Below are positions 10,403 to 14,250 of a stretch of 40,884 nucleotides of DNA, piece after piece; position 1 is the first letter of the stretch; every line of letters begins with the position of its first letter. The notes under the pieces were generated by a model, which worked only from the letters and a program-made list of their open reading frames with translations, ran no database searches and was not told the DNA's origin. This stretch comes from a virus. The stretch is from the UHGV virus genome UHGV-2008032. One strand, written 5' to 3'. A program made the position numbers and the translations under genes.

Positions 10403-11044
10403 TCAGGAGAATTTCATCATCATCTGCACTGCTACGCCGATTATCTTGCAGTTGCCGTCGATTGGGATCAACGGATAGGCAGGGTTAAGCCCTTTCAGGT
10501 ATTTGTTACCGCCATCAATGATTAGCTTCTTGAACGTGGCTTCATTAGCATCTGTCAGCTTCGCAACTACCAGGCTTCCATTAACGGCTTCCTTTCCAGT
10601 GTCGAACAGAACCAGCATACCCTCAGGAACGCTAAGGCCGGTAGGAGCTGTCATTGAGTCGCCCTGAACCCTGAGCCAGAAGGCGTCACCGACAACGTGA
10701 CAATCTGATTCATACCACTCATCCACTGCCTGAGGGTTGTACGGCTCTACGGCCTCACTCCATGCACCTGCGCTAACCCAGCTAATCAACGGAAACTTTT
10801 CCCCTGGCTTGTATTGTCCCTGATAGTTGTCGCCAAAAAGCAGTTCTGCCGGAGCGACACCCAAAGCTTTAGCTATTACCTCTGCGTCATCAACACTAAC
10901 GCTTCTGGTTCCTGATTCATAGTTGCCGATCCGAGATTGTGAAGCCCAGCCGCAAAGCTCCGCAAGAGCCTTCTGTGTAAGCCCTTTATCTTCCCGTAAT
11001 CGCTTGATACGCGCGGCGATAGTTTCTGTTCTGTTCATGCGCAT
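10403..11044 (-). CDS. cI: CI-like repressor (HTH plus LexA-like S24 autopeptidase)
   Basis: N-terminal XRE-type HTH; C-terminal GDSM serine and downstream lysine; divergent from cro; -10-like TATAAA abuts the ATG, so the mRNA may be leaderless. Confidence 0.85.
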   Translation of the reverse strand: MRMNRTETIAARIKRLREDKGLTQKALAELCGWASQSRIGNYESGTRSVSVDDAEVIAKALGVAPAELLFGDNYQGQYKPGEKFPLISWVSAGAWSEAVEPYNPQAVDEWYESDCHVVGDAFWLRVQGDSMTAPTGLSVPEGMLVLFDTGKEAVNGSLVVAKLTDANEATFKKLIIDGGNKYLKGLNPAYPLIPIDGNCKIIGVAVQMMMKFS

Positions 11045-11049
11045 TTTAT

Positions 11050-11111
11050 ATCACATTCCGTGGTTTAAGGCTTTACACGATTTGTGTTGACTATCAATCA
11101 CAATGTGTGTT
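11050..11111. promoter_or_regulatory. OR operator cluster (three sites) with PR
   Basis: Sites at 11050..11064, 11075..11089 (reverse) and 11097..11111; PR -35 TTGACT 11087..11092, -10 about 11110..11116; cro ATG at 11149. Confidence 0.55.
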
Positions 11112-11148
11112 TAATAAAGACTGAGTGAACTAGCTCTTAAGGAAACCT

Positions 11149-11364
11149 ATGAACAACATTGCCAACGAACGGAAAAAGCTTGGCATCACTCAATCTGCGT
11201 TAGCAGGCGCGTGTGGCTGGAACCAGTCCCGCTTAGCTAACTACGAGTCAGGTATCCGGACTCCAGATTTAGAGTCGTGCCGTAGCCTGGTAAAGGCGCT
11301 GAATAAATTGGGGAGCAAGACAACGCTAGATGGCTTGTTCCCGCCGCGTAAGAACGCCGCATAA
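11149..11364 (+). CDS. cro: Cro-like HTH repressor
   Basis: 71 aa, XRE-type HTH; SD AAGGA; divergent from cI. Confidence 0.75.
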   Translation: MNNIANERKKLGITQSALAGACGWNQSRLANYESGIRTPDLESCRSLVKALNKLGSKTTLDGLFPPRKNAA

Positions 11365-11370
11365 GCAAAT

Positions 11371-11415
11371 TGCTCTTTAACAGTCATGGTCCTCATTCCC
11401 GCCGAAATGCGGGAA
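11371..11415 (+). promoter_or_regulatory. nutR (boxA TGCTCTTTAACA + boxB hairpin)
   Basis: boxA 11371..11382; boxB stem TTCCCGC/GCGGGAA with loop CGAAAT at 11396..11415; near-identical to nutL. Confidence 0.65.
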
Positions 11416-11472
11416 TACAACGCGCATAAGTTGATGCGCATAACTTCTTATTTGTTAAGGAAATACTTACAT

Positions 11473-11751
11473 ATGGAACTTACAAGTACTCGCAAGAAAG
11501 CGAATGCAATTACAAGCAACATCCTAAATCGAATTGCTGTACGTGGTCAGCGAAAGGTTGCCGACGCGTTAGGGATTAATGAATCGCAAATTTCGCGATG
11601 GAAAGACAGCTTCATCCCCAAAATGGGAATGCTTCTTGCTGTTCTTGAATGGGGTGTTGAAGACGAGGAGTTGGCGGAACTGGCTAAGAAAGTAGCCAGA
11701 ATGCTGACAAAAGAAAAAGCCCCGAAGAACGGCGAATTCTTCGAGGCCTGA
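11473..11751 (+). CDS. cII: CII-like transcriptional activator
   Basis: ...[26 protein letters not shown]... matches the lambda CII helix-turn-helix region as recalled; start could instead be ATG 11434. Confidence 0.65.
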
Positions 11752-11785
11752 TGTAGAAAGACTGGATCAATCCACAGGAGTCATT

Positions 11786-11932
11786 ATGACAAAACAACTC
11801 AGTCCTTACCAGGACAAAATTCACAAACACATACTACGTGATCGCTTCCTGTCCAGCTTCAAGCAGCCTGGTCGATTCCGGGCTGAGTTGGAAAAAGTGA
11901 AGCTGATGCAGAAGGAGAAAGGTCATGAGTAA
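11786..11932 (+). CDS. Small hypothetical protein (48 aa) overlapping the O-like start
   Basis: Hand-translated; AGGAG 5 nt upstream of ATG; 8-nt overlap with the next gene. Confidence 0.3.
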
Positions 11933-12824
11933 CATATCTAATCTAGCCGAAGCCAGAGAGGCCAGAAGGCTACAACAACCGCATCAAAGCAGCGGTAAGG
12001 GGTATGCCTTGCTGCACCGTAAAATTATGGATGTGCCGTTTTACAAGGACGCAGAAGCTGCGCATCTGTGGGTTCACTTAATCCTCAAAGCAAAGCATAC
12101 GCCTGAGTATGTAATGACTGACGCAGGAGAAATTCTGGTAGGCAGAGGGAAGCTACTTGGCGGTAGAAACTCTCTGGCGTTTGAAACAGGACTCAAACCA
12201 GATCGCGTTCAGTACCTGCTTAGAAAGTTCAAAAAACTCGGCATGATTGACTGGGTTTCACACGGTAAATTCTCAGTTTTCTCGGTAGAGAAATATGACG
12301 ATTATCAGTCAAATTTTGTACCAGCAGATTACCAGCAAATTACCACCTCAAAGCCAGCAATACCAATGCCTGCAAGCAATACTGTACCAGCAGATTACCA
12401 GCAAATTACCACAGATAAAGAATATAATAATATTATCTCTAATACTGACGTATTAGAGAGTACCGCAGCAGACAAAAAGTCTGACAAGAAAAAACCTTCC
12501 GTTAGCTGTCAGGATGTTGTCGATGCTTACCACGAAATCCTTCCTGAAGCGCCAAGAATCCGCGCACTGAATGACAAGCGTAAAAACCAGATCCGAACGT
12601 TCTGGCGCAAAGCCGGAGTGATAACCCGCCAGCTTGACGGGCATGGGTTCACGATGCAGGACTGGAGAAATTATTTGAGCTACGTAGGCGAAAATTGCCG
12701 ATGGATGTTCGAAGAGCGTCCAAACCATCAACGCGGAACTGTCTGGCACAAAAAGGGATTTGATTTCCTGCTTAACGATAATACCTACCTGAAAGTTCGT
12801 GAGGGTGAACACGATGACCGATAA
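11925..12824 (+). CDS. Replication initiator, lambda O-like, with internal origin iterons
   Basis: Position after cII and before the helicase; contains direct repeats and an AT-rich block as lambda ori does inside O. Confidence 0.6.
12317..12412 (+). repeat. Origin-like iterons: two perfect 30-bp direct repeats TGTACCAGCAGATTACCAGCAAATTACCAC
   Basis: Copies at 12317..12346 and 12383..12412, each with two ATTACCA sub-repeats; AT-rich stretch 12413..12460 follows. Confidence 0.6.
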
Positions 12825-14250
12825 TTTTTATGCGCCGCCCCATAGCATCGAGGCAGAGCAGGCGGTGATTGGTGGATTGCTTCTGGATGATGACAGCAGT
12901 GAGCGCGTCCAGAAAGTTCTGGCGATGCTGAAGCCTGATTCATTTTACAGCCGACCACACAAAATCATTTTCGAAGAAATAACCAGAATGCACCGTGAGC
13001 AAAAGCCAGTAGATGGCCTGACGCTTTTCGATGAACTGGAGCGTAAATCGTTAACTGTGTCTGTTGGCGGTTTTGCTTATATAGCTGAGATCGCAAAGAA
13101 CACGCCAAGCGCCGCAAACATCGTTGCCTATGCAATGCAGGTTCGCGAAACCGCAATGGAACGCTACGCCATCAACCGCATGACTGAAGCGACGGAATTG
13201 CTCTATTCCCGCAACGGAATGACTGCGACGCAGAAGTACGAAGCTATTCAGTCGATTTTCACGCAACTGACAGACCATGCAAAAACCGGATCGCGTCGCG
13301 GCCTTCGCTCATTTGGTGAGGTTATGGAAGACTGGGTTAGCGACCTTGAGAAGCGATTTGACCCGTCAGGCGAACAACGAGGAATGAGCACAGGGATCCC
13401 ATCGCTGGACAGGATGCTGTCACCGAAAGGTCTGGTGAAAGGCTCTCTGTTTGTCATTGGCGCTCGCCCTAAGATGGGGAAAACGACGCTATACAGCCAG
13501 ATGGCAATCAACTGCGCAGTGCATGAGAAAAAGCCCGCTCTGATGTTCAGCCTTGAAATGCCCGGTGACCAGATACTGGAAAAACTGGTAGGACAGAAGT
13601 CAGGTGTTAACCCGAATATTTTTTACCTTCCGGCGACAAATGACGCTGATGACGGCTATCAGGGTGATTACGATGGTGACTTCAACAGGGCGATCGAAAC
13701 AGCCAATCGCTTGAGTGAAATCGACCTGCTTTACATCGACGACACGCCGGGATTATCTCTGGCTCAAATAGTCAGCGAAAGTCGTCGAATCAAGCGAGAA
13801 AAAGGATGTGTTGGCATGATTCTGGTCGATTACCTGACACTAATGACTGCTGAGAAGGCCGATCGCAACGACCTTGCTTACGGCATGATCACCAAAGGAC
13901 TGAAGAACCTTGCCAAAGAGCTTGATTGCGTTGTTGTGCTTCTGACGCAGCTTAACCGCGCACTGGAAAGCAGAACCAATAAACGCCCATTACCAAGTGA
14001 CTCACGAGATACAGGGCAGATTGAACAGGATTGCGATTATTGGGTGGGGATCCATCGTGAAGGTGCTTTTGATGACAGTGTTCCACCTGGTGAAACCGAA
14101 CTAATCCTTCGTCTCAATCGTCATGGCAATACCGGCACGGTGTATTGCATTCAGGCAAATGGCTCTATTTATGACACAGACCAACAGTCCGCTGAAATGC
14201 GCCGCCGTGAACGCGAGGAACCGCAATCCAAGAAGAAAGGAGGATTCTGA
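12814..14250 (+). CDS. Replicative DNA helicase, DnaB family
   Basis: Walker A GARPKMGKTT; DnaB-like N-terminal domain; ATG 12814 overlaps the upstream stop. Confidence 0.85.
   Translation: MTDNFYAPPHSIEAEQAVIGGLLLDDDSSERVQKVLAMLKPDSFYSRPHKIIFEEITRMHREQKPVDGLTLFDELERKSLTVSVGGFAYIAEIAKNTPSAANIVAYAMQVRETAMERYAINRMTEATELLYSRNGMTATQKYEAIQSIFTQLTDHAKTGSRRGLRSFGEVMEDWVSDLEKRFDPSGEQRGMSTGIPSLDRMLSPKGLVKGSLFVIGARPKMGKTTLYSQMAINCAVHEKKPALMFSLEMPGDQILEKLVGQKSGVNPNIFYLPATNDADDGYQGDYDGDFNRAIETANRLSEIDLLYIDDTPGLSLAQIVSESRRIKREKGCVGMILVDYLTLMTAEKADRNDLAYGMITKGLKNLAKELDCVVVLLTQLNRALESRTNKRPLPSDSRDTGQIEQDCDYWVGIHREGAFDDSVPPGETELILRLNRHGNTGTVYCIQANGSIYDTDQQSAEMRRREREEPQSKKKGGF

What the first reader, a model, noticed from the sequence alone, without database searches (positions are those of the whole stretch)
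12317..12460. Origin-like iterons embedded in the O-like initiator gene
Two perfect 30-bp direct repeats 66 bp apart, each with two ATTACCA sub-repeats, are followed by an AT-rich stretch. This mirrors lambda ori lying inside O, and the repeats encode a duplicated peptide [10 protein letters not shown] in the initiator linker.
Basis: partly seen in the sequence, partly recalled or inferred. Interest (0 to 1): 0.45.

Follow-up and report, generated by a model that had tools for sequence, protein, structure and literature searches.

The report
Known phage origin inside initiator gene
The repeats are real and are almost certainly the replication origin of an HK022/VT2-Sakai-type lambdoid phage, but the identical sequence is already annotated as "ori iterons" in public phage records, so the finding is correct and ordinary.

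Summary
Observation confirmed. TGTACCAGCAGATTACCAGCAAATTACCAC occurs perfectly at 12317-12346 and 12383-12412. It is the only exact repeat of 16 nt or more in the 40.9-kb window. It lies in a 299-aa initiator gene (11925-12824) just upstream of a DnaB-like helicase gene. Refined anatomy: each 30-mer holds three units spaced 11 bp apart (six in all), and the clusters start 66 bp apart. A 23-bp tract of 91% A+T follows, then a perfect 10-bp palindrome (12436-12459). Across 106 distinct relatives the layout holds (11-bp period in 104, 66-bp spacing in 97) while the unit sequence changes by lineage. Unit type follows the protein's winged-helix N-domain, not its C-domain. The iterons stay conserved at synonymous sites. 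The palindrome shows compensatory changes at all 10 pairs. The whole element is encoded in the protein's predicted disordered linker. Ori-lambda has the same three-part layout, although the two initiator proteins show no detectable sequence similarity. I found no experimental test of this origin type. Low interest.

The parts
11925..12824 (+). Initiator gene of the HK022 'O' / phage L gp18 type, 299 aa
   Evidence: ORF. PHROG 345 'replication initiation O-like', E 5.6e-88. 98.8-99.7% nucleotide identity to the O genes of HK022, VT2-Sakai, phage 86 and mEp235.
12012..12299 (+). Codes for the N-terminal winged-helix domain (about aa 30-125), the presumed iteron-binding domain
12317..12346 (+). 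Iteron cluster 1: three 11-bp-phased units (TGTACCAGCAG / ATTACCAGCAA / ATTACCAC...)
   Evidence: Annotated 'ori iteron 1' in AP000422. 92% conserved, 90% at third codon positions, against 12 divergent relatives.
12347..12382 (+). 36-bp variable spacer between the clusters, which keeps them 66 bp (6 x 11) apart
   Evidence: Only 60% conserved (58% at third positions) in the same comparison. Spacing is 66 bp in 97 of 106 unique relatives.
12383..12412 (+). Iteron cluster 2, identical to cluster 1
   Evidence: Annotated 'ori iteron 2' in AP000422. 98% conserved, including third codon positions.
12413..12435 (.). AT-rich tract (91% A+T), the presumed DNA-unwinding element
   Evidence: An 18-22 nt tract of 84-95% A+T is present in most relatives.
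12436..12459 (.). Perfect 10-bp palindrome with a 4-nt loop: TCTCTAATAC-TGAC-GTATTAGAGA
   Evidence: Covariation at all 10 pairs, 97.6% of cells paired against 61% in shuffles, and no G-T wobble in the inner nine pairs. At least 24 arm variants.
12492..12821 (+). Codes for the C-terminal domain (about aa 190-299), the presumed partner/helicase-interaction domain
   Evidence: AF2 pLDDT above 90. It is exchanged independently of iteron type. The Erwinia relative has a different C-domain (23% identical to the window's) and a lambda-P-like partner.
12814..14250 (+). DnaB-like replicative helicase gene, whose start overlaps the end of the initiator gene
   Evidence: Pfam DnaB (1.5e-31) and DnaB_C (3.1e-60). 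The start matches the VT2-Sakai P annotation. The mechanical ORF list gives GTG at 12799.

Best explanation
This is the vegetative replication origin of a lambdoid phage or prophage with the HK022 / VT2-Sakai / HK620 type of replication module. Shown here: six 11-bp units (core TACCA) are arranged as two triplets whose starts are 66 bp apart, so they repeat about once per helical turn. A 23-bp tract of 91% A+T follows, then a 10-bp palindrome. All of this lies in the part of the initiator gene that encodes a flexible linker. Inferred mechanism: after pR transcription produces the initiator, its winged-helix N-terminal domain binds the 11-bp units, probably one domain per unit in head-to-tail arrays because the units have no dyad symmetry. 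The resulting nucleoprotein complex destabilises the adjacent AT-rich tract. The C-terminal domain then recruits the phage's own DnaB-like helicase, encoded by the next gene, to the opened DNA. The palindrome is a structure-selected accessory element of the origin, matching in position the inverted repeat to the right of the AT-rich tract in ori-lambda. Its exact role is unknown.
For: Identity: the same two 30-mers are annotated 'ori iteron 1/2' in VT2-Sakai. Other records carry rep_origin features at the homologous site: HK620, a joined feature over the two clusters; phage L, 'putative origin'; Sf6, 'putative; reminiscent of the lambda origin'. PMC8022706 describes the L-type as six 11-bp repeats that are likely the origin. 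Context: the element lies between a cI/cro/cII module and a DnaB-like helicase. Architecture: of 106 distinct relatives, 104 have an 11-bp period and 97 have 66-bp cluster spacing, most have the AT tract, and 100 have a perfect hairpin, while the unit sequence differs by lineage (TACCA, GTCCA, TGCCA, ATCCA). DNA-level selection: 11 bp is out of codon phase, so the three units of a cluster are read in three different frames. The clusters are 92-98% conserved, 90-98% at third codon positions. The N-domain stands at 75% and 56%, and the spacer at 60% and 58%. Specificity: no pair with different iteron types has N-domains more than 74% identical, while 331 such pairs have C-domains at least 95% identical. 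Mosaic breakpoints against phage L, ST160 and Sf6 enclose exactly the N-domain plus the iterons. The N-domain has a winged-helix fold. The palindrome covaries at 10 of 10 pairs. Ori-lambda has the same three-part order.
Against: No experiment on this origin type was found in the searchable literature. All public statements say 'putative', 'likely' or 'reminiscent'. The initiator shows no detectable sequence similarity to lambda O (BLASTP E 4.7, hhalign probability 1.4%) and does not hit Pfam Phage_rep_O, so the analogy with lambda rests on layout and genome position. Binding, unwinding and helicase recruitment are all inferred. The hairpin set used for covariation was picked by requiring a perfect stem of at least 7 bp, which inflates the percentage paired, although 100 of the 106 sequences passed. 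The iteron/N-domain association could partly reflect physical linkage.
Confidence: 0.85

Rival explanations
1. The repeat is only a tandem 66-bp duplication of linker-coding sequence, that is, a peptide repeat in a disordered linker with no function as DNA.
For: The repeats encode a duplicated decapeptide in a low-confidence linker. Copy number varies naturally from one to four clusters (L110, L103/L106, P0002, P0001), as unequal crossing-over would produce.
Against: The 11-bp sub-period is out of codon phase. The encoded peptide differs entirely between lineages while the DNA layout is kept. Third codon positions in the clusters are 90-98% conserved, against 56-58% in the flanking coding sequence. 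The two clusters stay near-identical within each genome but differ between lineages.
Confidence: 0.03
2. The repeats are binding sites for the initiator or another protein but serve regulation, such as autoregulation, a transcriptional roadblock or copy-number control ('handcuffing'), and replication starts elsewhere.
For: Iterons in plasmids also act in copy control. Binding sites inside the initiator's own gene could modulate its transcription. No origin mapping exists for this type.
Against: The sites are directly followed by an AT-rich tract and a palindrome in the same order as in the experimentally defined ori-lambda (PMC7466680 and PMC3349717). Per PMC8022706, earlier genetics (Hilliker 1981) showed that the whole L replication region, but not its single genes, can substitute for that of P22, which places the origin within this region. 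No other repeat of 16 nt or more exists in the window.
Confidence: 0.07
3. The conserved hairpin plus the adjacent A/T run is a minus-strand intrinsic terminator, or an mRNA structure, rather than part of the origin.
For: The simple scan flags 12459-12436 as terminator-like on the minus strand. The phage L record annotates predicted terminators on the minus strand in this region.
Against: The stem has only 3 G-C pairs and the tail is mixed A/T rather than a T run. The inner nine pairs show zero G-T wobbles across 34 distinct sequences. That pattern is expected for a palindrome selected in double-stranded DNA or on both strands, and is unusual for an RNA stem. No sigma-70-like promoter match was found anywhere in 11000-13200, so none is placed to drive antisense transcription. 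Ori-lambda has an equivalent inverted repeat.
Confidence: 0.05

Closest known systems
Putative origins annotated in VT2-Sakai (AP000422 'ori iteron 1/2'), HK620 (NC_002730 rep_origin) and HK022 O
   Same: The iteron sequence, position and gene are identical or nearly so. The gene is 98.7-99.7% identical, and the two 30-mers are the same in VT2-Sakai and HK620.
   Different: Nothing of substance. HK022 itself has one mismatch in cluster 2 (L100). The window is a different mosaic phage outside this module.
Phage L / ST64T / Sf6-type origin (six 11-bp repeats TGTCCAACGGA in gene 18; PMC8022706)
   Same: The initiator is homologous (64-68% aa identity in alignment A1). The layout is the same: 3+3 units, 11-bp period, 66-bp spacing, AT tract and an almost identical palindrome. 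The C-domain and helicase are 93-100% identical.
   Different: The unit core is GTCCA rather than TACCA, and the N-domain is diverged (about 50% identity), which implies a different origin specificity.
Bacteriophage lambda ori within gene O
   Same: The origin lies in the middle of a 299-aa initiator gene, in the inter-domain region. The order is iterons, AT-rich tract, then an inverted repeat with a 4-nt loop. It sits in the pR operon downstream of cII (PMC7466680, PMC3349717).
   Different: Lambda has four 18-19-bp iterons that are themselves imperfect inverted repeats; here there are six 11-bp direct units with no dyad symmetry. The initiators show no detectable sequence similarity. The partner here is a phage DnaB-like helicase, not the lambda P loader that captures host DnaB.
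Iteron-type plasmid origins (directly repeated sites bound by winged-helix Rep proteins, next to an AT-rich unwinding element) - from general knowledge
   Same: Direct, helically phased repeats are presumably bound by a winged-helix initiator domain next to an AT-rich tract.
   Different: Plasmid iterons are typically about 17-22 bp and lie outside the rep gene. Here the units are 11 bp and are embedded in the initiator's own coding sequence. I did not test any plasmid system.

Membership tests
HK022 / VT2-Sakai / HK620-type lambdoid origin (annotated, putative) | Sequence identity to the annotated iterons | tested here: met
   AP000422 misc_binding 'ori iteron 1/2' maps exactly to window 12317-12346 and 12383-12412. 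The sequences are identical in VT2-Sakai and HK620.
HK022 / VT2-Sakai / HK620-type lambdoid origin (annotated, putative) | Located inside the HK022-type O gene, followed by a DnaB-like helicase gene | tested here: met
HK022 / VT2-Sakai / HK620-type lambdoid origin (annotated, putative) | 3+3 units with an 11-bp period and 66-bp cluster spacing, then an AT-rich tract, then a palindrome | tested here: met
HK022 / VT2-Sakai / HK620-type lambdoid origin (annotated, putative) | Supports initiator-dependent replication | not testable with these tools
   Needs an ori-test plasmid or origin mapping. No published test was found.
Lambda-type origin (ori-lambda with O and P) | Iterons inside the initiator gene, followed by an AT-rich tract and an inverted repeat | tested here: met
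   Window. Lambda reference.
Lambda-type origin (ori-lambda with O and P) | 18-19-bp iterons, each with internal dyad symmetry | tested here: not met
   The only inverted repeat in 12290-12480 is the 12436-12459 palindrome. The units are 11-bp direct repeats.
Lambda-type origin (ori-lambda with O and P) | Initiator homologous to lambda O | tested here: not met
   BLASTP E 4.7, hhalign probability 1.4%, no Pfam Phage_rep_O hit. The only link is the broad PHROG label 'O-like'.
Lambda-type origin (ori-lambda with O and P) | Partner is a lambda-P-type loader of host DnaB | tested here: not met
   The downstream gene is a DnaB-like helicase. Only the Erwinia relative Ehr59 pairs this origin layout with a P-like loader.
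Winged-helix iteron-binding initiators (general class) | Winged-helix DNA-binding domain whose type co-varies with the repeat sequence | tested here: met
   Fold. Co-segregation. Mosaic boundaries.
Winged-helix iteron-binding initiators (general class) | Direct physical binding of the initiator to the repeats | not testable with these tools
   Requires EMSA or footprinting.

The most novel reading that the evidence does not exclude
This origin class may work differently from ori-lambda in two ways. First, the initiator's winged-helix domains may bind as head-to-tail arrays, one per 11-bp unit (about one per helical turn), rather than as dimers on palindromic iterons. Second, the strictly Watson-Crick palindrome, variable in sequence but with a conserved asymmetric T-R-A-M loop, may be extruded as a hairpin or cruciform when the AT tract opens, and may act as a structure-specific helicase-loading or priming signal. 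That signal would serve both DnaB-like-helicase partners and lambda-P-like partners. Neither point has been described for this family in what I could search.
Probability: 0.25. Interest if true: 0.45.

Novelty: already known. Interest (0 to 1): 0.12.

Why it matters
This replication module is extremely common in E. coli prophages, including Shiga-toxin phages such as VT2-Sakai, Stx1/Stx2 phages and phage 86. Individual protein clusters occur on at least 1000 contigs. Phage replication is reported to be needed for efficient toxin production (PMC7466680). Published biochemical work on Stx-phage origins that I could find covers only the lambda-type O/iteron system, so this second, widespread origin type remains experimentally uncharacterised. 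The finding itself adds nothing new. The comparative data collected here give a ready design for experiments: the unit definition, the specificity classes, natural variants with one to four clusters, and the covarying palindrome.

Tried and rejected
- Rfam scan of the whole window at gathering threshold: no hits.
- Pfam on the initiator: only a sub-threshold DUF7376 match. NCBIfam: nothing.
- Profile search of PDB sequences: nothing significant.
- Similarity to lambda O: none detectable.
- Dyad symmetry inside the iterons: none.
- Single-strand folding of the iteron region: no better than shuffled sequence, z +1.07, so the iterons are not a structured element.
- Hairpin as a terminator: judged weak.
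- Whether the hairpin sequence is specific to the C-domain, the helicase or the N-domain: it is not. The same arm occurs with C-domains 22-32% identical, and different arms occur with domains at least 90% identical. A sequence-specific recognition model tied to either domain was therefore dropped.
- A possible fourth, degenerate in-phase unit in the spacer (AGCCAGCAA at 12352): seen by eye, but not consistently conserved among relatives, so not claimed.
- Six literature searches for an experimental test of this origin type found none. The library lacks most subscription journals, so the HK022, HK620, Sf6 and VT2-Sakai genome papers could not be read.

Full report
OBSERVATION. The sequence TGTACCAGCAGATTACCAGCAAATTACCAC occurs at 12317-12346 and again, without a mismatch, at 12383-12412, 66 bp start to start. 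About 7e-10 exact 30-mer pairs are expected in a window of this size, and this is the only exact repeat of 16 nt or more in all 40,884 bases. Both copies lie in the 299-aa ORF 11925-12824 and encode the duplicated peptide [10 protein letters not shown]. They are followed by AGATAAAGAATATAATAATATTA (12413-12435, 91% A+T), which coincides with the local GC minimum of 0.25. Two points refine it. First, each 30-mer contains three cores, not two, in strict 11-bp register (TACCA at 12319, 12330 and 12341, and at 12385, 12396 and 12407). The pattern TACCA-N6-TACCA-N6-TACCA matches twice against 0.00 expected. Second, the AT tract is followed directly by a perfect 10-bp inverted repeat with a 4-nt loop, TCTCTAATAC-TGAC-GTATTAGAGA, at 12436-12459.

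CONTEXT. The neighbourhood is a typical lambdoid early-right region:
- cI-like repressor, 10403-11044 on the minus strand (HTH plus Peptidase_S24)
- cro-like gene, 11149-11364
- cII, 11386-11751 (Pfam Phage_CII)
- a 48-codon ORF, 11786-11932
- the initiator gene
- a DnaB-like helicase, 12814-14250 (the mechanical ORF list begins at GTG 12799)
- NinB

The initiator matches PHROG 345 'replication initiation O-like' at E 5.6e-88. At the nucleotide level it is 98.7-99.7% identical to the 'O' genes of mEp235, VT2-Sakai, Stx2 phage 86, CP-1639, HK022, HK630 and HK620. The rest of the window is a different mosaic: the best phage records cover only about 40% of the first 25 kb.

ALREADY ANNOTATED. The VT2-Sakai record AP000422 carries two misc_binding features, 'ori iteron 1' and 'ori iteron 2', bound moiety O protein. 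They map exactly to window 12317-12346 and 12383-12412. HK620 has a joined rep_origin feature over the same two clusters. Sf6 has 'putative; repeat region reminiscent of the phage lambda origin; similar to phage HK620', and phage L has 'putative origin of replication'. I found no paper that tests it experimentally. The library lacks most subscription journals, so an older test could exist.

COMPARATIVE ANATOMY. I collected 140 loci that encode relatives of the initiator: 11 annotated phage records, 48 bacterial-genome loci and 80 IMG/VR contigs, together with the window itself. They reduce to 106 distinct origin regions. An unbiased scan over periods of 9-13 bp and cluster spacings up to 130 bp gave an 11-bp period in 104 and a 66-bp spacing in 97. 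The exceptions are six remote, mostly Firmicute, homologs (L055-L060), two loci with a 12/68 arrangement (L032, L033), and one natural single-cluster variant (L110). The unit sequence is lineage-specific:
- TACCAGCA in the window / HK022 type
- TGTCCAACGG in L, ST64T, Sf6 and ENT47670
- TGTCCAGCC in Klebsiella Chronis and Enterobacter CobraSix
- GTGCCAACAG in Klebsiella, Erwinia and Yersinia phages
- AATCCAA in two further genomes

Most relatives have an A+T tract of 18-22 nt (84-95% A+T), and 100 of the 106 have a perfect hairpin of at least 7 bp.

IS THE DNA ITSELF UNDER SELECTION? Three arguments say yes. First, 11 is not a multiple of 3, so the three units of a cluster are read in three different frames. 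The repetition cannot be a by-product of selection on a peptide, and the encoded peptides differ completely between lineages ([50 protein letters not shown]). Second, I compared 12 relatives that share the TACCA unit but have diverged in the protein. Against the window, the clusters are 92% and 98% identical (90% and 98% at third codon positions). The N-domain coding sequence is 75% identical (56% at third positions), and the 36-bp spacer between the clusters is 60% (58%). Third, within each genome the two clusters match at 22-29 of the 30 positions scored, and at 26 or more in most, while differing between lineages.

THE PALINDROME. As single-stranded DNA the hairpin folds at -7.5 kcal/mol, z = -5.4 against shuffles, and equally well on either strand. 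In 34 distinct loop-centred sequences, all 10 pairs show changes on both sides. 97.6% of cells are paired, against 61% in shuffles and 29-47% when the partner is slid by 1-3 columns. The covariation score is 0.825 against 0.186. The encoded peptide changes ([24 protein letters not shown]...) while pairing is kept. The inner nine pairs contain no G-T wobble at all. That is what selection for a true DNA palindrome predicts, because a G-T on one strand is an A-C on the other, and it is unusual for an RNA stem. The loop is asymmetric and conserved (T-R-A-M; columns 15 and 17 are invariant). One caveat: the sequences were chosen by requiring a perfect stem of at least 7 bp, though 100 of the 106 passed. 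The arm sequence is not tied to either protein domain or to the helicase. The same arm occurs with C-domains 22-32% identical, and different arms occur with N-domains at least 90% identical (58 pairs) or C-domains at least 90% identical (8 pairs). Selection therefore seems to act on the symmetry, not on a particular sequence. A simple scan calls the stem terminator-like on the minus strand. But it has only 3 G-C pairs and a mixed A/T tail, and no promoter-like site was found in 11000-13200, so none is placed to feed it.

COMPARISON WITH LAMBDA. I analysed the lambda reference with the same tools. Its four annotated iterons (locus 735-819) are followed by an A-rich/AT-rich tract and then a 12-nt inverted repeat with a 4-nt loop (863-874 / 879-890), all in the middle of a 299-aa O gene. 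The three-part order is the same. Three things differ. Lambda's iterons are 18-19 bp and are themselves imperfect inverted repeats (PMC7466680), whereas the only inverted repeat in 12290-12480 here is the palindrome. The two initiators show no detectable sequence similarity. The partner here is a DnaB-like helicase rather than the lambda P loader. The Erwinia phage Ehr59 combines this origin layout and N-domain with a different C-domain and a lambda-P-like partner gene. That fits a model in which the C-domain selects the partner.

MECHANISM. Shown: the anatomy, its conservation, DNA-level selection, co-segregation of iterons with the N-domain, the winged-helix fold, and the covarying palindrome. 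Inferred by analogy with ori-lambda and iteron plasmids: the N-domain binds the 11-bp units, the AT tract opens, and the C-domain recruits the phage helicase. Because the units are direct repeats one helical turn apart with no dyad symmetry, binding is more likely one domain per unit in head-to-tail arrays than lambda-style dimers. This is conjecture. The role of the palindrome is unknown.

COPY-NUMBER VARIANTS. Relatives exist with one cluster (L110, gene 66 nt shorter), three clusters (L103, L106; many 321-aa E. coli proteins such as P0002) and four clusters (P0001, 343 aa). Each step is exactly 66 bp or 22 aa. This is what unequal exchange between the repeats would give, and it parallels the four-versus-six iteron difference between lambda and 933W-type Stx phages (PMC7466680).

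VERDICT. The feature is an already annotated, very common element: the putative origin of the HK022 / VT2-Sakai / HK620 replication module. It is neither surprising nor new. What remains open is experimental. Nobody appears to have shown binding, unwinding or origin activity for this class, and the role of the palindrome is unexplained.

Noticed in passing
window 11717-11793, minus strand: An oop-like antisense unit sits at the cII/orf48 junction. A strong terminator-like hairpin (14 pairs, 6 G-C, T-rich tail) lies at 11749-11717 on the minus strand. The 33-bp block 11761-11793 (ACTGGATCAATCCACAGGAGTCATTATGACAAA) matches the conserved pO/oop 5' sequence quoted in PMC3349717. Rfam gave no hit at gathering threshold.
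   Followed up: partly
window 11786-11932 (+): This 48-codon ORF (orf48 of HK022/P22) overlaps the initiator start (ATGAGTAA). Its homologs are labelled 'tail protein' in RefSeq records and in PHROG 1913. That label looks like a propagated mis-annotation for a gene in the replication module.
   Followed up: no
L110, L103, L106 (IMG/VR); proteins P0001, P0002: Natural variants of the same gene have one, three or four iteron clusters instead of two, each step being exactly 66 bp (22 aa).
   Followed up: yes
L010 (Erwinia phage vB_EhrS_59), locus 830-2256: It has the same origin layout and N-domain family, but its C-domain differs (23% identical to the window's) and its downstream gene is a lambda-P-like loader rather than a DnaB-like helicase. 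This suggests the C-domain determines which partner is used.
   Followed up: partly
window 12453-12812, minus strand: A 119-codon ORF runs antisense inside the initiator gene. The Stx1 phage record annotates its counterpart as hypothetical protein 'ORF b66'. It is probably not a gene.
   Followed up: no
window 12799-12824: The helicase start overlaps the end of the initiator gene. ATG 12814, as annotated in VT2-Sakai, lies 11 nt inside the initiator ORF, and GTG 12799 is also open. This suggests translational coupling.
   Followed up: no
L048 (Xanthomonas pisi, 386-bp contig); L018 (Chryseobacterium sp., 799-kb contig): Enterobacterial-phage-like initiator sequences appear in assemblies labelled as non-enterobacterial species. 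L048 is 100% identical to the window protein over 84 aa. L018 carries an Sf6-type origin. These are likely contamination or mislabelling.
   Followed up: no
L055-L060 (Firmicute and other remote homologs): Remote homologs of the N-domain (27-31% identity) lack the 3+3 / 66-bp arrangement, and four of the six also lack the palindrome. The origin layout described here may therefore be confined to Enterobacterales phages.
   Followed up: partly
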